Source of the DNA: a virus
Lineage: Duplodnaviria; Heunggongvirae; Uroviricota; Caudoviricetes
Virus record (IMG/VR): IMGVR_UViG_2531839179_000025
Coordinates: 1-10,934 of that record
Direction: 5' to 3' (one strand)
DNA: 10,934 nt
Shown here piece after piece: positions 1-10,457 of this stretch (positions are counted from its first letter, which is position 1; each line of letters starts with the position of its first letter). The notes under the pieces were generated by a model. That model ran no database searches. It was not told where the DNA came from and worked only from the letters and a program-made list of their open reading frames with translations. Both the position numbers and the translations under genes were made by a program.

Positions 1-1032
1 ATGCCGATCATAGCACCAATTTCCCGTGACGAACGACGCCTGATGCAGAAAGCCATCCATAAAACACACGATAAAAATTATGCCCGCAGACTGACTGCCA
101 TGCTGATGCTGCACCGGGGCGACCGTGTCAGCGACGTTGCCAGAACGCTCTGCTGCGCCCGTTCCTCTGTTGGACGCTGGATTAACTGGTTCACGCAGTC
201 GGGTGTTGAGGGACTGAAATCATTACCTGCCGGGCGTGCCCGTCGCTGGCCGTTTGAGCATATCTGCACACTGTTACGTGAGCTGGTAAAACATTCTCCC
301 GGCGACTTTGGCTACCAGCGTTCACGCTGGAGTACAGAACTGCTGGCAATAAAAATCAATGAGATAACCGGTTGCCAGTTAAATGCCGGAACCGTTCGCC
401 GCTGGTTGCCGTCTGCGGGGATTGTGTGGCGAAGGGCTGCGCCAACTCTGCGTATCCGTGACCCGCATAAAGATGAAAAGATGGCAGCAATCCATAAAGC
501 ACTGGACGAATGCAGCGCAGAGCATCCGGTCTTTTATGAAGATGAAGTGGATATCCATCTTCATCCCAAAATCGGTGCGGACTGGCAACTGCGCGGACAG
601 CAAAAACGGGTGGTCACGCCGGGACAGAATGAAAAATATTATCTGGCCGGAGCGCTGCACAGCGGGACAGGTAAAGTCAGCTATGTGGGCGGCAACAGCA
701 AAAGTTCGGCGCTGTTCATCAGCCTGCTGAAGCGGCTTAAAGCGACATACCGTCGGGCGAAAACCATCACGCTGATCGTGGACAACTACATTATCCACAA
801 AAGCCGGGAAACACAGAGCTGGCTGAAGGAGAACCCGAAGTTCAGGGTCATTTATCAGCCGGTTTACTCGCCATGGGTGAATCATGTTGAACGGCTATGG
901 CAGGCACTTCACGACACAATAACGCGTAATCATCAGTGCCGCTCAATGTGGCAACTGTTGAAAAAAGTTCGCCATTTTATGGAAACCGTCAGCCCATTCC
1001 CCGGAGGCAAACATGGACTGGCAAAAGTGTAG
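1..1032 (+). CDS. IS630 transposase (DDE, Tc1/mariner superfamily)
   Basis: 343-aa ORF starting MPIIAPISRDERRLMQKAIHK and ending PFPGGKHGLAKV, recognised from memory as the IS630 transposase. The window begins exactly at its ATG, so upstream signals are not visible. Confidence 0.9.
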   Translation: MPIIAPISRDERRLMQKAIHKTHDKNYARRLTAMLMLHRGDRVSDVARTLCCARSSVGRWINWFTQSGVEGLKSLPAGRARRWPFEHICTLLRELVKHSPGDFGYQRSRWSTELLAIKINEITGCQLNAGTVRRWLPSAGIVWRRAAPTLRIRDPHKDEKMAAIHKALDECSAEHPVFYEDEVDIHLHPKIGADWQLRGQQKRVVTPGQNEKYYLAGALHSGTGKVSYVGGNSKSSALFISLLKRLKATYRRAKTITLIVDNYIIHKSRETQSWLKENPKFRVIYQPVYSPWVNHVERLWQALHDTITRNHQCRSMWQLLKKVRHFMETVSPFPGGKHGLAKV

Positions 1033-1052
1033 CGGTATTAAGCGCAGCTATT
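1..1052 (+). mobile_element. IS630-family insertion sequence, partial (left end lies outside the window; right end approximate)
   Basis: Contains the complete 343-aa transposase ORF that I recognise as IS630 Tc1/mariner-like transposase. The element must end within about 25 bp after the stop at 1030-1032. The exact right inverted repeat and TA target duplication could not be resolved by eye. Confidence 0.8.
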
Positions 1053-1380
1053 TAGCATCAAAATCAGAACCGAGATTAACGGTCACGTAGCCACGCTTCA
1101 TGGCGTCGCCCGGGAAGTTCTTGCCACTCCCCACCTGGCGAACCATGTCCGGCTGCGAAGTGGTCGGATAAGGGCGCACGTAGATCCCCTTCACCTTGTC
1201 TGCGGTATCACCATCTGCCAGCGGCACGAAAAAACCGTCATCATCGTATTTACCAGCCAGGCCATAGGCAGCAAAGGCGTTATCGGATTTAAGGACCACC
1301 GGTTCGACGGTTAAGTCCTGCGGGCGAGAAACAGCCCCGGCAATGCCAACAGGCATCCGGTACAGAAATACATTATTCAT
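1048..1380 (-). CDS. Phage head structural protein, probably an N-terminal fragment truncated by the IS630 insertion
   Basis: 110-aa ORF with RBS AAGGG 8-12 nt upstream of the ATG at 1380 and a start 3 nt after the stop of the upstream gene (translational coupling in the head operon). Its stop codon lies at the IS630 junction, and the position after a scaffold-like gene is where a major capsid gene (usually over 300 aa) is expected. Confidence 0.45.
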   Translation of the reverse strand: MNNVFLYRMPVGIAGAVSRPQDLTVEPVVLKSDNAFAAYGLAGKYDDDGFFVPLADGDTADKVKGIYVRPYPTTSQPDMVRQVGSGKNFPGDAMKRGYVTVNLGSDFDAK

Positions 1381-3291: not shown

Positions 3292-4609
3292 TCTCGATGT
3301 CCTCGTCGGTAATGGATGCCCCGATGCCGGTTACGTCAGAATTTTCTCGCAAATCAGTCATAGCGGCTTTCAGTGTCATCAGACCATCACCCAGCGCCGT
3401 ACTGATTGCGTTGGTGGTGTTTAACGCCACCGTTGAGCGATCGACATCAGACATTTGCCAGAGCGGGTTAAACTCAAACGTGAAATCGTCCGGCAGCGGC
3501 TTGCCAAGTTCCGAACGATGCATGATGTCCAGTATCCGCCGCACCGGAAGACGTAAACGCCTCTCCTGCAACGAACTGATGCGATCGTAATAGTTGGCAA
3601 GGTCTGCATCACCGGTAGAAAATCCTTTCGGGGACTGTCCGAACAACCGCACCAGTGGGATACCAACAGCGCCACTAATCTGTTCTGCAAACTGCGAAAG
3701 GATGTCATCCAGACCACTGAAGCTGTACTGATGGGTTTCAAACTTATCCCGCGAGTCCATGAGCGTCATGCCTTCATTACTCTGGAACTGTCGAATCAGG
3801 TCGATATTCTTCAGCAACGCTTCATACGCAGGACCACCAAGTGCGATAAGCTCGCGTAGCTTCTCCACGCTGTAGGTACGCAAATGCGCCTTGTAGACCA
3901 GCTGCGCCGCGCCGACAGTAGCGCTGTCGAACGCGGTAAGACGATCCCAGATACGCTCTACAACCGACATTCCCCATTCGTTCTCGGTCATCTTCTGCTG
4001 AAATGGCAACGTGACGCCATCAAAGCGAATCAGGCGACTGTGATGAATGCGCCAGGCAGGAATTCCCGTTGCTGTGGTCACCACATCGTAAAACTCAGGT
4101 TTACCCAGGTCCGGCCCCATATCTTTAATGCGGCGGGTCAGTGCCGGGTCGACCATCCAGCGGTCGAGCGGGAGAATCCCCTTAAACTTGCCCTTACCGA
4201 TGGTTTCGGGTCGCAGCGGGGTCATTGGTGCCTGCCCCTCAATCATGATGAAACCCACCGCGCCGCCGTAGAGGCGCGACCATTTCAGCACGTCATTCAG
4301 CGCATCCCAGATTTGCAACTCATCCAGTTGTGATTCGAGAATGCCACGATCTTTTGCATCAATTTCCGAAGTGATGCGAATGCCTTTGCGGGTCATATCA
4401 TCCGGGATAGCATCGACTGCTTCGCCGATGATCCAAGATGAACGATAGGACCATTCCACCAGCATGCGGTTACGGCTGGTGAAATTAGCCCGGTAGGTGG
4501 ATGCTGAGTGCTGGTTAGGTGTCTGCATCCCTACGCGGGCAATAAAATTCTCATAACCATCAGCTGTGGCCTGCACAGTTCGCCGCAGGGCTTGTTTGTT
4601 TCGTGCCAT
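3143..4609 (-). CDS. Phage portal protein (DUF1073-type)
   Basis: 488-aa ORF directly downstream of the large terminase, with its ATG overlapping the terminase stop (TGATG at 4607-4611). Size, position and an acidic C-terminal tail fit a portal protein. Confidence 0.8.
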   Translation of the reverse strand: MARNKQALRRTVQATADGYENFIARVGMQTPNQHSASTYRANFTSRNRMLVEWSYRSSWIIGEAVDAIPDDMTRKGIRITSEIDAKDRGILESQLDELQIWDALNDVLKWSRLYGGAVGFIMIEGQAPMTPLRPETIGKGKFKGILPLDRWMVDPALTRRIKDMGPDLGKPEFYDVVTTATGIPAWRIHHSRLIRFDGVTLPFQQKMTENEWGMSVVERIWDRLTAFDSATVGAAQLVYKAHLRTYSVEKLRELIALGGPAYEALLKNIDLIRQFQSNEGMTLMDSRDKFETHQYSFSGLDDILSQFAEQISGAVGIPLVRLFGQSPKGFSTGDADLANYYDRISSLQERRLRLPVRRILDIMHRSELGKPLPDDFTFEFNPLWQMSDVDRSTVALNTTNAISTALGDGLMTLKAAMTDLRENSDVTGIGASITDEDIENAEDEAPPGIGEPDDEPQEPSGGNPVSNQPTQDSEGGRRHRKWSLRWFK

Positions 4610-6030
4610 CAGGCCTGTCTCCCCAGCTGTTCCCAGATATCCAGCGATGTATCGATTGGCGCGAAGGCCATAATGAATGCATCAGCAACGTTTGGTGACG
4701 GTATCTCGCGTTTTGCGAGGTCTTTTTTACTTTCGACCATCACACGTCCGTTACGGTCGAAATCACGATGAGGTGTTGTCAGTTCCAGTTTCAGCTTTTC
4801 AAGCAACGGACAACGAGAATCTATGCTGATCAGCTCATCCACAGGATACTGTTCTCCGTTGTTAATGGCGTTAAACGTATTTCTGAAACGGTCAGCCACC
4901 AGCCACCATGCCTGAGCCTTAAGATTTGCGAAAAAGTCTTTGTTGGGGATGCCGTTGTACTCGTCATCTGGCTCATGCACACCAGCACCGGCGTTAAACC
5001 TCTGGTAATTCACACGTCGCGCGTATGCGTTCTCGCTCTTCCGGTCAGCGTTAATTTCAGAGAATTTAGCACCGGCAGACGCACCAACACCGATAGAGTC
5101 GTAAACAATATCTGCTTCACGCTCCAGCGCCGCCTGATAAGTACGCTGGCAGCTCTTCAGTAATTCATCTTCTTTGGCCTTCCATTCGTCGGCCCAGAAA
5201 ACAACGGATCCGTGACGGTAAACGTTAGCGCACTTATCTGTACCACTGTCAGCCACGTCAAAGCCAATACGCTTTCTTCCACTGGGTTCGAAATTTAACG
5301 TTTTGTGCGCATCCACTGCGGCTTCTATCCAAGACAGTTTGATGATTGCCGCATCATCATCAGACTCCGGAACGCCCTCATACACATGTTTAAAACCATC
5401 CGGATCACGGCGTCGCGCCGCGTCGATAACCTTAAGCATGGTGTCAGACAGAAACGGATTTTCGTCATAGTTAATTTTGCGGATGAGAGTGCCTTCGGGC
5501 GGATCAACAACGAAGTTGCGCCAGACGAAATCAGTAACAAGTCCGGGGTTGAATATGAACCAGCATTCCGAACCCTCTTTACGGATCGTTGGCTCCAGAA
5601 TTTTCCACTGGTATTCCGTCAGTGCGTGGGCTTCTTCCAGCCACAACACATCGATCCCCTCCAGTGACTTAATTTCTTCGATGTTGCGCCATAATCCATA
5701 AAAAACAAATTCCGAGCCAGTAACCCGGTTTATGATTTTGTTGTTCAGAATACGGAAACGGTGCCGCAGACCAAACCTGTCTATCTGAATTTTGAGCAGG
5801 GTATACACCGACTCTTCGATTTTATTCTGGATCTGACGGGCACAACAAAAACGCAGGGTGTATTTATTCGACAGAAATATGGCAATGCCAGCGGCATCCC
5901 ATGATTTTGACGATGACCGACCACCATAAAGCACTTTGTTACGTGCCCGCATAGTCCAGAAACTACGTAAAGCCGGATTCAGCGTCGGTTTGGATGTCAG
6001 AGTAGAAGTCATTGAGGTCACGCTCTCCAT
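4609..6030 (-). CDS. Phage terminase large subunit (PBSX / Terminase_3-like, headful type)
   Basis: Long ORF with an ATPase-like N-terminal region (YGGRSSSKSWD Walker-A-like; VLWLEEAH Walker-B-like) and a nuclease-like C-terminal half. The start is set at the ATG at 6030 (MESVTSMTSTL); the ORF track extends to 6120 and an alternative ATG is at 6012. Confidence 0.85.
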   Translation of the reverse strand: MESVTSMTSTLTSKPTLNPALRSFWTMRARNKVLYGGRSSSKSWDAAGIAIFLSNKYTLRFCCARQIQNKIEESVYTLLKIQIDRFGLRHRFRILNNKIINRVTGSEFVFYGLWRNIEEIKSLEGIDVLWLEEAHALTEYQWKILEPTIRKEGSECWFIFNPGLVTDFVWRNFVVDPPEGTLIRKINYDENPFLSDTMLKVIDAARRRDPDGFKHVYEGVPESDDDAAIIKLSWIEAAVDAHKTLNFEPSGRKRIGFDVADSGTDKCANVYRHGSVVFWADEWKAKEDELLKSCQRTYQAALEREADIVYDSIGVGASAGAKFSEINADRKSENAYARRVNYQRFNAGAGVHEPDDEYNGIPNKDFFANLKAQAWWLVADRFRNTFNAINNGEQYPVDELISIDSRCPLLEKLKLELTTPHRDFDRNGRVMVESKKDLAKREIPSPNVADAFIMAFAPIDTSLDIWEQLGRQA

Positions 6031-6727
6031 TGCCATCATCAATACCTGCATCACGGCGAAGACGATCAGCCTCCAGAGACACCTTATCAGTGGCGGCCTT
6101 GCGGTAGGCTGTATCAGCAAATATTTTTCCTACCGTCGCAAGCGTGCCAACGATGGACTCAATACGAACTGTATTGCGCATCATTGCTTTCTCGGCGGCG
6201 CTGATATTTTCAATCAGCATCTTCCTTTCCTGGTCCCCATTAGCATCTTCCAGCGACACCAACCACCGGCCAATATTCTCTGCAGCGACAAGGTTGTTAG
6301 CACGAAGGCGAAATAATTCGTCCTCGAGCGTCAACGCTTTAGCGTCCTCTATCACCTCATCTTTGAGCAGAAGGCGACGGGCATAACCACCGTGTTTTAA
6401 TGCCTGCTGGTTACCGGGTTGGAATGGGTTAGTCGGGGGATCGGTACGCATTCCGCGTATCGGTTTCGTATCCGGTGTAGATTCTGTTTTTAGTTGCGTA
6501 CTTTTTTGTGTAAGGCCAGTAATGGCAGGCTTTCTGCTGGTACGCACTTTCCTTTTTTGCGTACCATTTTTGCAAACCTGCGTACCGCCACTGCGTGCCC
6601 AACCAAGCTTTTTGGCCCTCTTCCTGATAGCCCCTTCTGTAACGCCGTATTTCTCGCCTATATCACGGAGGCTAAGGACTCCGGCCCGGTATGCCGATTC
6701 GATGGCCTCCCAGTCCGGTTTTGCCAT
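5963..6727 (-). CDS. Phage terminase small subunit (HTH DNA-binding, DNA packaging)
   Basis: 254-aa ORF immediately upstream of and overlapping the large terminase. The N-terminus (LSLRDIGEKYGVTEGAIRKRAKKLGW) looks like a helix-turn-helix typical of small terminase subunits. Confidence 0.7.
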   Translation of the reverse strand: MAKPDWEAIESAYRAGVLSLRDIGEKYGVTEGAIRKRAKKLGWARSGGTQVCKNGTQKRKVRTSRKPAITGLTQKSTQLKTESTPDTKPIRGMRTDPPTNPFQPGNQQALKHGGYARRLLLKDEVIEDAKALTLEDELFRLRANNLVAAENIGRWLVSLEDANGDQERKMLIENISAAEKAMMRNTVRIESIVGTLATVGKIFADTAYRKAATDKVSLEADRLRRDAGIDDGNGERDLNDFYSDIQTDAESGFT

Positions 6728-6841
6728 GATTATGCTTTCTGTGATTTACTGTTATCGCTGCCTGTCACAATAGGTTGCTTTAATTCTTCCTCATCACTCA
6801 CTCCTGCGACGCTCCGTGGCAGGGCCCCCCACAGGAGTACC

Positions 6842-6871
6842 TTGTAAATGTAAGGTGTTTAAGCCTAAATT
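6842..6871 (+). promoter_or_regulatory. Candidate sigma70 promoter for the plus-strand membrane-protein gene
   Basis: TTGTAA (6842-6847), 18-nt spacer, TAAATT (6866-6871), about 55 nt upstream of the ATG at 6925. Sequence match only. Confidence 0.25.
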
Positions 6872-6924
6872 AAGTCGTATCACGGTTAAATAGCAAAGAA
6901 AAATTCACAGAAGGAAAGACATTG

Positions 6925-7434
6925 ATGGAGTGGATAAATGCTTTGATGAACTATTTTGTACTTCATCCATATCGCCTATGGGGGCTTCTTTTTATAATAG
7001 CGTTCACAAAATCCACTTTACTCATTTCGGCGATATTGCCACCAGCATCAATTATGATGGCCACTGTAATTACAGTCAGCAAGACGACTCTTTCACCATG
7101 GGAAGCTGGAATCACGGTCATGAGTGGCGCATGGTGCGGTACTATCGTTAATTACCATCTTGGTATAATAATTGGGCATATCCCTCAACTTGCATGTATA
7201 ATATCGAGCCGTTCCAATACAATAGAACGGGTTCGCCTTCAGTTGCAAAATAACTCTGTGTCAATACTTTTCACTTCGCGCTTTATCGCCGTGCTGCGTT
7301 ATATTGCTCCTTTGGTGGCAGGAATGTTGCAACTTCATCCAGTGAAAGTGTATACAGTGAGTCTGATTTCAGCTGCTAGCTGGTCAGCACTTTATGTTGG
7401 TAGTTTTAGCTTCGTGTTGCCTTTTTTTAGCTAA
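6925..7434 (+). CDS. DedA-family-like (TVP38/SNARE-associated-like) inner membrane protein; moron on the opposite strand
   Basis: 169-aa hydrophobic ORF with RBS AAGGAAAG 6 nt upstream of the ATG at 6925 (the track ORF begins at a TTG at 6922). The C-terminal stretch SRFIAVLRYIAPLVAGMLQLHPVKVYTVSLISAASW resembles the DedA signature (RF..G.R....AG...M....F......A..W). The gene is visibly AT-richer than its flanks and opposes all neighbouring phage genes. Confidence 0.55.
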   Translation: MEWINALMNYFVLHPYRLWGLLFIIAFTKSTLLISAILPPASIMMATVITVSKTTLSPWEAGITVMSGAWCGTIVNYHLGIIIGHIPQLACIISSRSNTIERVRLQLQNNSVSILFTSRFIAVLRYIAPLVAGMLQLHPVKVYTVSLISAASWSALYVGSFSFVLPFFS

Positions 7435-7522
7435 ACTGCCCATAAAAAGCTCTTGCGAATCCAGCTTCCCCCATTCCTCTGACAACAGAATCTGATTTGA
7501 AGGATAATGAGTAAAATTACCG

Positions 7523-7993
7523 CTACCCCCCAAGGCATTGGATCCTGATGTACTCCTGAAGCATTCTCAATGCTGTCTGGTCGCTGATGATTCCGTCCCG
7601 GATACCGAGAACGTTTCGTCCAGCAACTGGAGAGAGTTCGACGGTGGCATCATTGCCCATGCCGGAGGCGCTGGAGGTTTCGGCTGAGGATGGCACAGGG
7701 CATTTTCCTTTGACGAGCACCCAACCACCATTATCAAGCTTGCGCCGAAGAGCATCATTTTCAGCTTTCGCATTGGCTAACTCCTTCGTGTATTTAGCAT
7801 CGAGTGCATCAGCAGCACGCTGGCGCTGCTGCATGTCAGTAATGGTTGCGTTCGCCAGCTTCAGTTCTCTTGCGTTTTTGTCGCGCTGCTCTTTGTAGGT
7901 AATGGCGTTATCACGGTAATGATTAACAGCCCATGACAGGCAGACGATGATGCAGATAACCAGAGCGGAGATAATCGCGGTGACTCTGCTCAT
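7523..7993 (-). CDS. Rz: Rz i-spanin (inner-membrane spanin subunit)
   Basis: 156-aa ORF starting [49 protein letters not shown], very close to lambda/21 Rz, with an N-terminal transmembrane segment. The ATG at 7993 overlaps the endolysin stop. Confidence 0.85.
7567..7773 (-). CDS. Rz1: Rz1 o-spanin lipoprotein, embedded in the +1 frame of Rz
   Basis: 68-aa [24 protein letters not shown] with a lipobox (VVGC) and a proline-rich segment [11 protein letters not shown], lying wholly inside Rz. A strong RBS (AAGGAG) sits 7 nt upstream of the ATG at 7773. Confidence 0.8.
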
Positions 7994-8487
7994 TGCTGCC
8001 CCCACAAACAGACTTCACGCTCAATCTCACGACGGGTCATCAGCCCTTTCCATTGCTTACCGCCAGCATATGTCCAGCGACGTAGCTGGTCACATGCGCC
8101 TTTGATATCGCCCTGGTTTATTTTGCGAAGAAGCGTCGATGTTCTGAAATTGCCAGCGCCCACGTTGTAAACGAACGAGTAAAGAGCGCCGCGCGTTGTT
8201 TCCGGTATATCGACTTTGATGTACGGGTTAATTTGTCTGGCGACAGTGGCAAGGTCTTTATTCAGGAGAGCTTTGCATTCTGCTTCGGTATACGTTTTAC
8301 CAGGCATGATGTCTTTTCCGGTGTGTCCGTGACATACAGTCCATACACCAATGATATCTTTGTATGGTATGTAGCTGACACCTTCCAGACCATCGTTACC
8401 ACCTGGGCCAGTGATTAACACAGATGCTATAGCAACAGCCCCGCCACCAATAGCAACTGCAACAGCCTTGCGTAATGATGGCGACAT
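7990..8487 (-). CDS. R: SAR endolysin (phage 21 R-like lysozyme, T4-lysozyme fold)
   Basis: 165-aa ORF with an N-terminal Gly/Ala-rich signal-anchor-release segment ([20 protein letters not shown]) followed by a lysozyme catalytic region ([25 protein letters not shown]). The ATG overlaps the holin stop. Confidence 0.9.
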
Positions 8488-8702
8488 TATTCACCTCTCG
8501 CAGCCTTACGCTTATCTTCTCTTATTTTGAAATACAGATTCGTCAGATAAGTCAGAAGCCCCAGAAGCAGACTTCCCAGCACACCAATCGCAGCCCACTG
8601 TGATGGACTGACCTGATCCAACCACTGCAAAAACCAGTAGCCGGCACTGCCGGCGGAGGTGCCGTAGGCAATGCCTGTTGATATTTTTTCCATCTGATAC
8701 AT
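8487..8702 (-). CDS. S: Class II pinholin (phage 21 S-like), dual-start holin/antiholin
   Basis: 71-aa [30 protein letters not shown]... with two start codons (Met1 and Met4) and two transmembrane segments, matching S21. Confidence 0.9.
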
Positions 8703-9381: not shown

Positions 9382-9456
<75 letters not shown>

Positions 9457-9459
9457 ATA

Positions 9460-9535
<76 letters not shown>

Positions 9536-9537
9536 GC

Positions 9538-9614
9538 TGGCCCACCACCGAGGACTCGAACCTCGCACCGTCAACTTAGAAGGTTGATGCTCTATCCGGA
9601 TGAGCTAGTGGTGG
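9538..9614 (-). tRNA. tRNA-Arg (anticodon UCU)
   Basis: 77-nt cloverleaf: acceptor CCACCAC/GTGGTGG, anticodon stem TCAAC/GTTGA with loop CTTCTAA, T-loop TTCGAGT, encoded CCA. Confidence 0.8.
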
Positions 9615-9615
9615 T

Positions 9616-9692
9616 TGGTGGCCCTTGCTGGACTTGAACCAGCGACCTGGCGATTATGAGTCGCTCGCTCTGACCAACTGAGCTAAAGGGCC
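9616..9692 (-). tRNA. tRNA with CAU anticodon, Ile2-like (ileX/ileZ-type, reads AUA after lysidine modification; Met not excluded)
   Basis: 77-nt cloverleaf: acceptor GGCCCTT/AAGGGCC, anticodon arm GCGACTCATAATCGC and T-arm GGTCGCTGGTTCAAGTCCAGC nearly identical to E. coli tRNA-Ile2 as I recall it; encoded CCA. Confidence 0.8.
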
Positions 9693-9899: not shown

Positions 9900-10457
9900 T
9901 TAAAGCTGCATCAGCCTTTCCACCAGTTTATCTCTGCGAACAACAAACCAACCATTGGCTCTCGCCAGTTCCAGCCATGACTCAAGGGAAATAACAATAT
10001 CATCATCCCGCAACTGAATTGTGGAAACAGTGACACCGCCTTGCTGATAACAGAGAACTCGCGTGTCGTAACTTTTCTGGCATGAAACTGGCGTTGACGG
10101 CTCCTTTTGACTGAAATAGCAGTCTTCCAGTTTTTCGAACACATCCCACGCCTGATCGGTTTCGAGCATTTTTGCGTGGCGGGCTGCGCCGCGTTCTGTC
10201 CAGAGAATGAGGGAGCGGTTTTTGGGAGAGATGGGATTTTGTGAGTAGTTTAAAGCTACCCGCAATTCTTTAAGGTCATTACCAACAACTTTGAAAAAGT
10301 GTTTCCCTTCAACGAAGCGTACTTTGTTCTCATGATGATTCTGGCGAATACGCACCGGCTCAGTGCCGTAAAGCTGCGCCAAAAGTTCGGTGGTAATAAC
10401 AGGAATCTGGTTATAGGTAACAGGGGAAAGGTTTTTGACAGAAATCTGAACAGTCAT
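9900..10457 (-). CDS. ORF6N-domain (KilA-N-related) DNA-binding phage protein, antirepressor-like; sits in the position usually held by the Q antiterminator
   Basis: 185-aa ORF with RBS GAGG 5 nt upstream of the ATG at 10457. The N-terminal region PVITTELLAQLYGTEPVRIRQNHHENKVRFVEGKHFFKVVGNDLKEL and the downstream WTERGAARHAKML match the ORF6N pattern (LA.LYGV....L...V.RN..RF...F.F.L...E...L ... FTE.G.AML) as I recall it. Confidence 0.6.
   Translation of the reverse strand: MTVQISVKNLSPVTYNQIPVITTELLAQLYGTEPVRIRQNHHENKVRFVEGKHFFKVVGNDLKELRVALNYSQNPISPKNRSLILWTERGAARHAKMLETDQAWDVFEKLEDCYFSQKEPSTPVSCQKSYDTRVLCYQQGGVTVSTIQLRDDDIVISLESWLELARANGWFVVRRDKLVERLMQL

What the first reader, a model, noticed from the sequence alone, without database searches (positions are those of the whole stretch)
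6842..7434. AT-rich DedA-like membrane protein moron on the opposite strand between lysis and packaging modules
This is the only plus-strand gene inside the minus-strand phage region, in the slot where lambda carries bor. It is visibly AT-richer than the flanking phage genes and has its own candidate promoter and a strong RBS. The protein keeps the C-terminal DedA-type signature, but the N-terminal glycine-rich motif is degenerate (ILPPAS where the family usually has a Gly-containing motif). A DedA-like protein as phage cargo could alter membrane homeostasis, drug or colistin tolerance, or superinfection, and is not a standard lambdoid moron.
Basis: partly seen in the sequence, partly recalled or inferred. 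Interest (0 to 1): 0.55.

Follow-up and report, generated by a model that had tools for sequence, protein, structure and literature searches.

The report
Phage-carried variant DedA membrane protein
A small inner-membrane protein gene of the DedA family sits backwards between the lysis and DNA-packaging genes of a Shigella/E. coli prophage; it is real and already annotated by homology, but it belongs to a small unstudied branch of the family in which a normally essential glutamate is replaced by lysine, and what it does for the lysogen has never been tested.

Summary
The ORF is real: + strand, 6925-7434 (or TTG 6922), 169 aa, 42% GC in a 51% GC window, and the only + strand gene among the phage late genes. 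It scores above Pfam's cut-off for the VTT/DedA domain. RefSeq already calls it "DedA family protein". It lies convergent with Rz/Rz1 and upstream of the small terminase, in the position of lambda bor. A sibling prophage with a 98%-identical packaging module lacks it. A different Citrobacter prophage carries a 78%-identical copy at the same position.

K-S-T...L-P-P-A-S is nearly invariant in a small clade of short (167-180 aa) DedA proteins. These are chromosomal in Enterobacter, Serratia, Morganella, Arsenophonus and even Ca. Riesia. In this clade the glutamate that is essential in YqjA (E39) is lysine, the two essential arginines are kept, and the C-terminal helix is absent. dN/dS is 0.15-0.25.

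A ~75-nt leader does travel with the gene.

Best reading: a host-derived membrane-homeostasis gene captured as a moron, probably handling anionic lipids without carboxylate-based proton coupling. The function is inferred, not shown. Interest is moderate.

The parts
6925..7434 (+). Coding sequence of the short DedA/VTT-family inner-membrane protein (169 aa plus stop). RefSeq starts it at the adjacent TTG 6922.
   Evidence: ORF list. Pfam VTT_dom 52.4 bits, above the 33.9 cut-off. RefSeq WP_011069285.1 'DedA family protein'. dN/dS 0.15-0.25 against Citrobacter copies. AlphaFold2 model with pLDDT 86.4.
6850..6924 (+). About 75 nt of upstream leader that travels with the gene, including the RBS AGGA at 6912-6915. 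The promoter is not identified.
   Evidence: Conserved with the C. youngae prophage, C. meridianamericanus and C. amalonaticus copies, and not further upstream. In C. youngae, similarity starts exactly where a truncated rrrD-type gene ends. No Rfam family matches. No consensus sigma-70 site was called.
6735..7479 (.). Segment absent from prophages that share either flanking module: the moron cassette plus junction DNA, about 745 bp and 42% GC.
   Evidence: Homology of the packaging module in 112 E. coli genomes ends at window 6729-6734. Homology of the DLP12-type lysis cassette in thousands of genomes starts at window 7479-7494. The intergenic parts are 42-43% GC.
5963..6727 (-). Context: terminase small subunit, the first gene of the packaging module.
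   Evidence: PHROG 370 'terminase small subunit', E 7.5e-95.
7523..8005 (-). Context: Rz-like i-spanin, the last gene of the lysis cassette, convergent with the DedA gene across an 88-bp gap. Rz1 o-spanin is embedded at 7567-7773.
   Evidence: PHROG 13, E 1.1e-72, and PHROG 3198, E 1.7e-26.
7990..8702 (-). Context: RrrD-type lysozyme (7990-8487) and class II holin (8487-8702).
   Evidence: Pfam Phage_lysozyme E 9.5e-46 and Phage_holin_2_1 E 1.5e-35.

Best explanation
The gene is a moron: a host-type accessory gene captured by lambdoid phages and parked, in reverse orientation, at the junction after the spanin genes and before the terminase genes. That is the position of bor in lambda.

It encodes a 169-aa inner-membrane protein with the VTT/DedA core. 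The model shows a transmembrane helix, a helix-break-helix at 32-52 where the first hairpin is expected, a second transmembrane helix, amphipathic helices, a helix-break-helix at 111-134 where the second hairpin is expected, and a final transmembrane helix.

It belongs to a small, distinct clade of Enterobacterales DedA proteins. In this clade the glutamate that is essential in E. coli YqjA (E39) is always lysine. The Gly of the L-P-G motif is proline. The two essential arginines (R119, R125), the serine equivalent to YqjA S52, and an invariant tryptophan are kept. No acidic residue is conserved anywhere. The last C-terminal helix of canonical DedA proteins is missing.

Most likely mechanism (inferred): the protein is made in the lysogen from its own leader. 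In the inner membrane it binds anionic lipid head groups at the hairpin tips through R119, R125 and K29. Candidate lipids are undecaprenyl phosphate or phospholipids. It would help them cross or redistribute in the bilayer without the carboxylate-based proton coupling proposed for YqjA. That would add to, or retune, the host's envelope and membrane homeostasis.

Shown here: family membership, clade-specific residues, purifying selection, mobility between two unrelated prophages, and chromosomal origin of the family. Inferred: expression in the lysogen, the substrate, and the benefit.
For: Identity:
- Pfam VTT_dom is above the gathering score.
- There are weak but specific NCBIfam matches to DedA and UptA.
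- A confident AlphaFold2 model (pLDDT 86.4, pTM 0.81) has helix-break-helix segments at 32-52 and 111-134, where the hairpins are expected.
- The only similar viral folds are giant-virus VTT proteins, probability 0.94-0.96.

Residues:
- Alignment with seven E. coli K-12 paralogues gives E39 to K29, G50-D51 to P40-A41, S52 to S42, and R130/R136 to R119/R125.
- K29 is K in 22 of 22 clade members. The position is E in 24 of 26 non-clade proteins.
- K29 is present in 75 of 76 and R125 in 76 of 76 sequences across genera.
- No invariant Asp or Glu exists in the clade.
- The literature reports E39, D51, R130 and R136 as essential in YqjA and clustered at the hairpin tips, with S52 also needed (bioRxiv 10.1101/2021.10.18.464800; 10.64898/2026.09.20.752871).
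- In UptA, R112, R118 and E32 contribute to C55-P binding (PMC11474028).

Selection and importance:
- dN/dS is 0.15-0.25, including between the two phage-borne copies.
- The clade is retained in the ~575-kb genomes of Ca. Riesia and is syntenic across 27 or more Enterobacter species.
- The ORF stays intact in prophages whose terminase or head genes are disrupted by IS elements or deleted.

Moron status:
- Low GC.
- Absent from a sibling prophage.
- Found at the same position, convergent with a spanin gene, in an unrelated Citrobacter prophage with a GpA terminase and a GH19 endolysin.
- A ~75-nt leader moves with the gene.
- The phage copies nest inside a Citrobacter/Kosakonia branch of a tree that otherwise follows host taxonomy.
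Against: - There is no expression evidence. No consensus promoter or terminator was found, and the conserved leader has no recognisable sigma-70 pair.
- The Glu to Lys change removes a residue whose loss inactivates YqjA. So canonical DedA activity cannot be assumed, and the protein scores far below the NCBIfam equivalog cut-offs (31 bits against 236).
- No substrate is known for any member of this clade, and no paper on it was found.
- No solved DedA structure exists to check the model against.
- The Shigella copy sits on a long branch with slightly higher dN/dS (0.25), which is compatible with some relaxation of selection.
- Neighbourhood data point as much to Mg2+ homeostasis as to lipid transport.
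Confidence: 0.5

Rival explanations
1. Superinfection exclusion or phage defence. The prophage-made membrane protein would alter the inner membrane, or a host membrane protein, so that DNA of incoming phages cannot enter. Inner-membrane morons such as HK97 gp15 and P22 SieA work this way.
For: It is a small inner-membrane protein encoded by a reverse-oriented moron in a temperate phage. It recurs in two unrelated prophages. That moron-encoded membrane proteins often act in exclusion is general knowledge (see the review PMC3594210 listed).
Against: No match to any PADLOC defence model. The family is overwhelmingly chromosomal, syntenic and retained in obligate endosymbionts that have little need for phage defence. 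That argues for a housekeeping ancestral role. Exaptation in the phage copy is not excluded.
Confidence: 0.15
2. Divalent-cation (Mg2+) homeostasis factor. The clade would work with, or regulate, Mg2+ channels, and the phage copy would help the lysogen in low-Mg2+ or membrane-stress conditions.
For: The gene neighbours a Mg2+ transporter in three lineages, involving two unrelated transporter families. MgtE is adjacent in 23 of 28 Enterobacter loci plus Lelliottia and Huaxiibacter, and in 6 of 22 Arsenophonus loci. CorA is adjacent in 8 of 8 Morganella loci. DedA mutants of K. pneumoniae are rescued by Mg2+ or Ca2+, and a Xanthomonas DedA is linked to Mg2+ uptake (PMC10846249).
Against: There is no adjacency in the Citrobacter/Kosakonia/phage sub-branch. 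A protein with no conserved acidic residue is a poor candidate for binding Mg2+ directly. corA next to uvrD is the usual enterobacterial position, so the Morganella case may be coincidence (my own knowledge of the E. coli gene order, not tested here). The orientations differ between lineages.
Confidence: 0.15
3. Modulator of host DedA proteins. DedA proteins are reported to dimerise through their hairpins. The Lys variant could form mixed dimers with YqjA, YghB or others, pairing its K29 with their acidic residues and changing or blocking their activity.
For: YqjA is modelled and cross-linked as a dimer, with the hairpins and the E39/D51/R130/R136 cluster at the interface (bioRxiv 10.64898/2026.09.20.752871). 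There is a charge reversal at exactly that position.
Against: The clade lacks the C-terminal helix proposed to contribute to oligomerisation. It persists in reduced endosymbiont genomes where partners may be few. Identity to E. coli paralogues is only 13-23%.
Confidence: 0.07
4. Silent passenger. The gene was picked up by illegitimate recombination at a module junction and persists in Shigella only because the defective prophage is fixed.
For: The prophage is heavily decayed, with IS1, IS2, IS600, IS911 and IS630-type insertions and pseudogenes. No promoter was identified. The gene is found in only 6 of 5,426 complete E. coli genomes.
Against: The ORF is intact wherever it was seen in complete genomes, while neighbouring phage genes are broken. 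dN/dS is 0.25 or lower. The exact protein is present on at least 1000 contigs, mostly S. flexneri. The independent presence in a second prophage suggests it is kept for a reason.
Confidence: 0.1
5. Accessory lysis function. The gene would be part of the lysis cassette, for example an antiholin or a membrane factor that sets lysis timing.
For: It lies directly next to the spanin genes in both prophages.
Against: It is on the opposite strand to the late operon, so it is not co-transcribed with the lysis genes. Two unrelated lysis cassettes carry it. Thousands of prophages have the same 93%-identical lysis cassette without it. The family is chromosomal and not phage-linked elsewhere.
Confidence: 0.03

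Closest known systems
E. coli YqjA / YghB (DedA family, PF09335)
   Same: Same VTT domain. Same pair of arginines in the second hairpin (R130/R136 correspond to R119/R125). Same Ser after the first hairpin turn (S52 corresponds to S42). Same Pro in the L-P motif and the same invariant Trp.
   Different: The essential E39 is Lys, and G50-D51 are Pro-Ala. The protein is about 50 residues shorter and lacks the C-terminal helix. Identity is only 17-23%, and it scores far below the NCBIfam equivalog cut-off.
YabI-like DedA proteins and DedA-PAP2 phosphatase fusions
   Same: These are the nearest canonical relatives by profile score, at 70-93 bits. Like the clade, they have a non-acidic residue at the D51 position.
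   Different: They keep the Glu (SEA or AES motif) and the P-G motif. Most have a further C-terminal helix, or a whole PAP2 domain.
B. subtilis UptA and PetA; P. aeruginosa PA4029 (DedA-family lipid transporters)
   Same: Same family. The arginines that contribute to C55-P binding in UptA are conserved here (PMC11474028; NCBIfam UptA match with E 6e-4).
   Different: UptA E32, which hydrogen-bonds R118 and contributes to binding, corresponds to the Lys here. The score is far below the UptA equivalog cut-off (19.9 against 250 bits). No transport data exist for the clade.
Lambda bor (and other morons of the post-Rz slot)
   Same: Same genomic position and orientation: after the spanin genes, transcribed against the late operon, with a base composition unlike its neighbours. 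The position of bor is established knowledge. Another E. coli prophage with this lysis cassette carries other reverse-strand genes there (DUF1398, YlcI/YnfO).
   Different: There is no sequence or fold relationship. Bor is an outer-membrane lipoprotein, whereas this is a polytopic inner-membrane protein (one search found only VTT_dom).
Giant-virus 'SNARE-associated Golgi protein' (VTT) genes
   Same: The only viral proteins in BFVD with a similar fold, probability 0.94-0.96.
   Different: They are eukaryote-type VTT proteins of 240-330 aa in nucleocytoplasmic large DNA viruses. E-values are above 0.1, and they have no relation to tailed phages.

Membership tests
DedA / VTT domain family (PF09335) | Significant match to the VTT_dom profile over its full length | tested here: met
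   52.4 bits against a gathering score of 33.9, E 9e-14, profile positions 3-121 of 123. All 21 homologues carry PF09335.
DedA / VTT domain family (PF09335) | [quoted passage not shown] | tested here: inconclusive
   The AlphaFold2 model (pLDDT 86.4) has helix-break-helix segments at 32-52 and 111-134 in the expected places. Coordinates could not be inspected. No solved DedA structure exists for comparison. The BFVD top hits are VTT proteins but with E above 0.1.
DedA / VTT domain family (PF09335) | Membrane-embedded glutamate before hairpin 1 (YqjA E39), essential in YqjA and YghB | tested here: not met
   Lys at this position. It is K in 22 of 22 clade members, and E in 24 of 26 non-clade proteins.
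DedA / VTT domain family (PF09335) | Second acidic residue in the L-P-G-D motif (YqjA D51) | tested here: not met
   The motif reads L-P-P-A here. This position is also non-acidic in most of the nearest canonical relatives (T, V or S in 20 of 26), so it defines the YqjA subgroup rather than the whole family.
DedA / VTT domain family (PF09335) | Two conserved arginines in hairpin 2 (YqjA R130 and R136) | tested here: met
   R119 and R125 are present. R125 is present in 76 of 76 and R119 in 75 of 76 sequences, the exception being K.
DedA / VTT domain family (PF09335) | [F/Y]xxx[R/K] motif in the second transmembrane helix | tested here: not met
   The sequence is Y77...I81. The position is variable in the clade (Q, N, R, M, I and others) and is R or K in 12 of 26 non-clade proteins.
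DedA / VTT domain family (PF09335) | C-terminal transmembrane helix after the VTT core, as in YqjA, YghB and DedA | tested here: not met
   The protein ends about 47 residues before YqjA does. Clade members extend 0-5 residues beyond this end. Most non-clade proteins extend 14-47.
NCBIfam equivalogs: DedA (NF008102) and UptA (NF052604 / NF052605) | Score above the curated equivalog cut-off | tested here: not met
   31 bits against 236; 19.9 against 250; 16.3 against 300.
Phage moron | Extra gene between genes or modules that are adjacent in related phages | tested here: met
   Sibling prophage PEC399 has a 98%-identical packaging module and no such gene. The lysis cassette occurs without the gene in thousands of genomes. 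No empty site with both identical flanks was found, because the gene sits at a mosaic junction.
Phage moron | Base composition different from the surrounding phage genes | tested here: met
   GC 42.0% and GC3 38.8%, against 48.6-55.2% and 45.8-60.9%. It is in the lowest 1.2% of windows.
Phage moron | Own promoter and terminator (autonomous transcription unit) | tested here: inconclusive
   The reverse orientation requires its own promoter, and a 75-nt leader is conserved with the gene. No consensus sigma-70 promoter or intrinsic terminator was detected.
Phage moron | Expressed from the repressed prophage and beneficial to the lysogen | not testable with these tools
   This needs RNA-seq or reporter data and phenotypes. 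No paper was found.
Known anti-phage defence systems (PADLOC) | Match to a defence-system protein model | tested here: not met
   0 families at E up to 1.

The most novel reading that the evidence does not exclude
The K-S-T...L-P-P-A-S clade may be a naturally 'uncoupled' form of the DedA fold. It would be a proton-independent scramblase or binder for anionic lipids, or a subunit that pairs with and retunes canonical DedA proteins. Temperate phages would have mobilised it to remodel the lysogen's envelope, for example by changing lipid-carrier recycling, polymyxin or serum sensitivity, or entry of competing phages. If so, it would be a new class of lysogenic-conversion gene. It would also be a natural experiment on whether the 'essential' glutamate of DedA proteins is needed for transport.
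Probability: 0.15. Interest if true: 0.65.

Novelty: new variant of a known kind. Interest (0 to 1): 0.4.

Why it matters
DedA proteins are now recognised as lipid and undecaprenyl-phosphate transporters tied to polymyxin resistance and envelope integrity. Their mechanism, and the role of the membrane-embedded acidic residues, is still unsettled, and no structure has been solved.

This clade replaces the key glutamate with lysine, yet it is under purifying selection and kept even in ~575-kb endosymbiont genomes. That gives a direct test of whether carboxylate-based proton coupling is needed for DedA function.

For phage biology, this is a documented case of a host membrane-homeostasis gene carried in the bor position by two unrelated lambdoid prophages. 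One of them is fixed in Shigella flexneri. It is therefore a candidate lysogenic-conversion factor in a pathogen. None of this has been tested experimentally, so the value at present is as a well-defined lead.

Tried and rejected
- The first AlphaFold2 run, with 15 clade sequences, gave pLDDT 58.7 and was discarded. A 48-sequence alignment gave 86.4.
- The Foldseek search of the PDB gave no hit with E below 0.001. The sequence search of the PDB gave only a chance hit. The afdb50 library was unavailable.
- Rfam on 6600-7600 gave only a chance snoRNA match below threshold.
- The PADLOC scan was empty.
- The promoter and terminator scan gave nothing upstream or downstream of the ORF. Manual inspection of the conserved leader found no hexamer pair with acceptable spacing. 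In Kosakonia, a different leader shows a plausible TTGGTG-18-TATAAA.
- I considered that the conserved leader was the relic of an rrrD-type lysozyme gene, because of a tblastn hit running up to the DedA start in C. youngae. I rejected this. True similarity covers only the last ~45 residues and ends where the leader begins. The other copies show no such similarity and have stop codons in all reverse frames.
- A 'plasmid-borne' copy is on a record that holds icd, purB and phoPQ, so it is a chromosomal fragment.
- INPHARED phages gave no DNA match, and the best protein hits were 30% identity or less, on doubtful 'phage' contigs.
- No neighbour gene is shared by all genera.
- Literature searches for DedA with prophage, moron or Shigella, and for the accession, found nothing relevant. 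One apparent hit was a place name, 'Dedacun'.
- Whether the 'dedA' of the Enterobacter colistin-heteroresistance screens belongs to this clade could not be resolved.
Full report
**1. What is in the sequence**

The window is the late region of a lambdoid-type prophage. All phage genes lie on the minus strand.
- From right to left there is an ORF6N protein (9900-10457), then four tRNA genes (9382-9692).
- Next come a P21-type holin (8487-8702), an RrrD-type lysozyme (7990-8487), and an Rz i-spanin (7523-8005) with an embedded Rz1 o-spanin (7567-7773).
- Then come the terminase small subunit (5963-6727), the large subunit, the portal, a Mu-F-like head protein, DUF2213, and a truncated cement protein.
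- The cement-protein gene abuts a DDE transposase ORF at 1-1032.

The only + strand gene inside this block is the ORF at 6925-7434, with an alternative TTG start at 6922. It encodes 169 aa.
- Its GC content is 42.0% and its GC3 is 38.8%. The flanking phage genes have 48.6-55.2% GC and 45.8-60.9% GC3.
- Only 1.2% of all gene-sized windows are as AT-rich.
- An AGGA sits 9 nt before the ATG.

The exception is the proposed promoter. TTGTAA-18-TAAATT at 6842-6871 matches 8 of 12 consensus positions. The consensus scan did not call it, and it lies outside the conserved part of the upstream region. No terminator was found.

**2. Is it a DedA protein?**

Yes, at the family level.
- Pfam VTT_dom (PF09335) scores 52.4 bits against a cut-off of 33.9, covering profile positions 3-121 of 123.
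- NCBIfam gives only weak matches to the DedA and UptA equivalogs: 31 bits against 236, and 19.9 against 250.
- The one PHROG match is a family of unknown function.
- RefSeq already annotates the identical ORF as WP_011069285.1, 'DedA family protein', in 6 of 5,426 complete E. coli genomes.
- The exact protein is on at least 1000 contigs, mostly Shigella flexneri.
- It is not a fragment of a larger gene. Homologues are 167-180 aa with the same start and end.

An AlphaFold2 model from a 48-sequence alignment is confident (pLDDT 86.4, pTM 0.81). It shows helix-break-helix segments at 32-52 and 111-134, where the two re-entrant hairpins of DedA models lie. The PDB holds no comparable fold. In the viral structure library, only giant-virus VTT proteins resemble it.

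**3. A distinct clade, not a degenerate copy**

I aligned the protein with seven E. coli K-12 paralogues taken from NC_000913.3. The correspondences with YqjA are:
- E39 corresponds to K29.
- G50-D51 correspond to P40-A41.
- S52 corresponds to S42.
- R130 and R136 correspond to R119 and R125.

E39, D51, R130 and R136 are reported as essential in YqjA and clustered at the hairpin tips. S52 was recently added to that list (bioRxiv 10.1101/2021.10.18.464800 and 10.64898/2026.09.20.752871).

The motif K-S-T...L-P-P-A-S is not noise.
- An index-free HMMER search of 1.84 billion representatives found only 12 proteins with E of 1e-30 or lower. All of those I retrieved carry the motif. The next-best hits (93 bits or less) all have the canonical Glu.
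- The K29 position is K in 22 of 22 clade members and E in 24 of 26 non-clade proteins.
- P40 is P in 22 of 22 clade members and G in 20 of 26 non-clade proteins.
- Across 76 sequences from a dozen genera, K29 is present in 75, R125 in 76 and W153 in 76. One caveat applies: the locus scan used LPPAS and LFTSRF as search patterns, so only positions outside those patterns are unbiased in that set.

The D51 position is non-acidic in most of the nearest canonical relatives too, so the Glu to Lys change is the distinctive one. No Asp or Glu is invariant anywhere in the clade. The clade also lacks the C-terminal helix that most relatives have.

**4. Where the clade lives**

It is a chromosomal family of Enterobacterales. 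It occurs in many Enterobacter species, Lelliottia, Huaxiibacter, Kosakonia, Citrobacter, Serratia, Hafnia/Obesumbacterium, Morganella, Proteus, Entomohabitans and Arsenophonus. It is also found in the ~575-kb genomes of Ca. Riesia.
- Synteny is conserved within Enterobacter and its relatives, and within Morganella.
- Only 3 of 70 species-level loci have phage genes beside it: the Shigella and E. coli representatives of this prophage, and a C. youngae prophage. A fourth locus has only a dinI gene beside it.
- A neighbour-joining tree follows host taxonomy. The phage-borne copies nest in a Citrobacter/Kosakonia sub-branch.
- In C. freundii and C. meridianamericanus the gene follows a dinI gene. 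In C. freundii this pair lies next to icd, with an Ail/Lom gene nearby, which looks like a prophage remnant.
- dN/dS is 0.15-0.25 in all comparisons that are not saturated.

**5. Moron anatomy**

- Prophages that share the packaging module lose homology at 6729-6734, just past the small-terminase start (112 genomes cover the query up to that point, at 88-98% identity).
- The DLP12-type lysis cassette, about 93% identical in thousands of genomes, picks up at 7479-7494.
- So about 745 bp are specific to this element.
- The sibling prophage in strain PEC399 has only a 61-aa minus-strand ORF in the slot. Another prophage carries other reverse-strand genes there.
- The C. youngae prophage has a different terminase (GpA type), portal, endolysin (GH19) and holins. 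It carries a 78%-identical copy that is again convergent with a spanin gene ending a complete lysis cassette.
- Similarity between the copies covers the ORF, about 75 nt upstream and about 10 nt downstream.
- In C. youngae the upstream border coincides with the truncated end of an rrrD-type gene. The mobile unit is therefore leader plus ORF.
- In E. coli VL7S7 an IS911 lies 44 nt upstream and the packaging and head genes are deleted, yet the ORF is intact.
- In FDAARGOS_943 the terminase gene is split by IS2 while the DedA gene is intact.

**6. How it most likely works**

Shown: a VTT/DedA-fold inner-membrane protein, under purifying selection, mobilised by phages from an enterobacterial chromosomal family.

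Inferred: it needs its own promoter because of its orientation, so it is probably expressed in the lysogen like other morons.

The two arginines contribute to C55-P binding in UptA, together with the Glu that is Lys here (PMC11474028). In this clade they are kept, and a third positive charge is added at the same site. The carboxylates thought to bind and release protons are gone.

The simplest reading is an anionic-lipid-handling protein that works without carboxylate-based proton coupling and adds to the host's membrane homeostasis. Candidate substrates are undecaprenyl phosphate or phospholipids. I put about 0.5 on this general explanation, and less on any particular substrate.

Rivals:
- Superinfection exclusion (0.15). 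There is no PADLOC match, and the ancestry looks like a housekeeping gene.
- A role in Mg2+ homeostasis (0.15). MgtE or CorA is adjacent in three lineages, and there are literature links between DedA proteins and divalent cations (PMC10846249). But the phage sub-branch shows no such adjacency, and there are no conserved acidic residues.
- Heteromeric modulation of host DedA proteins (0.07).
- A silent passenger (0.1).
- A lysis accessory (0.03).

**7. Comparison with what is known, and novelty**

The gene is a member of the DedA/VTT family by the Pfam criterion. It fails three features that characterise the studied bacterial members: the Glu, the [F/Y]xxx[R/K] motif and the C-terminal helix. 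It also falls far below the equivalog thresholds.

Positionally it is an analogue of lambda bor, with no homology to it. I found no paper describing a phage-borne DedA or this clade. No sequenced phage in INPHARED carries it.

I therefore class it as a new variant of a known kind. The annotation 'DedA family protein' already exists. What is new is the recognition of the Lys-variant clade and its carriage as a moron in two unrelated prophages.

Interest is moderate (0.4). It is a clean, testable lead for DedA mechanism and for lysogenic conversion in Shigella, but nothing about its function has been shown.

Noticed in passing
L028-L056 (Enterobacter, Lelliottia, Huaxiibacter), L057-L061 (Arsenophonus), L070-L082 (Morganella); e.g. 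L028:4485-5486, L009:11034-12050, L070:6520-7470: Chromosomal members of the Lys-variant DedA clade sit next to a Mg2+ transporter in three lineages. MgtE is adjacent and divergent in 23 of 28 Enterobacter loci plus Lelliottia and Huaxiibacter. MgtE is adjacent and co-directional in 6 of 22 Arsenophonus loci. The unrelated CorA is adjacent and convergent in 8 of 8 Morganella loci. The Citrobacter/Kosakonia/phage branch has none.
   Followed up: partly
window 1-1380: A 343-aa DDE_3/HTH transposase ORF (1-1032, + strand) abuts a cement-protein gene (1048-1380). That gene covers only the first ~103 of 154 profile positions and is 110 aa, against 168 aa in the E. coli FDAARGOS_943 prophage. An IS element appears to have truncated a head gene, so the prophage is defective.
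   Followed up: partly
window 9382-9692 (minus strand): A cluster of four phage-borne tRNA genes lies upstream of the lysis cassette: Gly-TCC, Thr-TGT, Arg-TCT, and one with a CAT anticodon. ARAGORN calls the last one Met, and RefSeq annotates the equivalent gene as Ile. In E. coli VL7S7 the first one is annotated tRNA-Val.
   Followed up: no
L022:5793-5930 and L002:9291-9776: In the C. youngae prophage the DedA cassette abuts a fragment encoding only the last ~45 residues of an rrrD-type lysozyme, followed by an Rz-like spanin (phrog_214). This is the remnant of a second lysis cassette, lying beside the complete holin, GH19 endolysin and spanin cassette. The gene therefore sits at a recombination scar.
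   Followed up: yes
L091 (NZ_CP056259.1, 82-kb 'plasmid' of C. freundii): This PLSDB record carries core chromosomal genes (icd, rluE, mnmA, hflD, purB, phoPQ), so it is probably a misassigned chromosomal piece. On it, dinI followed by the VTT gene lies directly beside icd, a classic lambdoid integration site, with an Ail/Lom-family gene and an ars operon nearby.
   Followed up: partly
L090:3824-5557 (E. coli VL7S7) and L001:16534-19273 (E. coli FDAARGOS_943): IS911 is inserted 44 nt upstream of the DedA start codon, with loss of the packaging and head genes in VL7S7. IS2 splits the large terminase gene in FDAARGOS_943. In both strains the DedA ORF is intact.
   Followed up: partly
P0030 and P0033 (Ca. 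Riesia): Louse endosymbionts with ~575-kb genomes keep a member of the Lys-variant clade, and one of them has two accessions for it. In P0030 (Riesia sp. GBBU) the first arginine is Lys (ISKFIAILRY). Whether it is their only DedA protein could not be checked.
   Followed up: no
P0041, P0042, P0046, P0049, P0050 and many others: The nearest canonical (Glu-containing) relatives by profile score include many 630-730 aa proteins with an N-terminal DedA domain. The one inspected (P0041, 534 aa) has a PAP2-type phosphatase motif (PSGH...SR...H...D), and similar plasmid-borne proteins are annotated as DedA/PAP2 fusions. That suggests a link between this DedA subgroup and polyprenyl or lipid phosphate metabolism.
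   Followed up: no
window 4609-6120 and 5963-6727: The mechanically listed large-terminase ORF starts at a TTG and overlaps the small-terminase gene by 158 nt. In the sibling prophage the annotated overlap is only 35 nt, so the true TerL start is probably further downstream.
   Followed up: no
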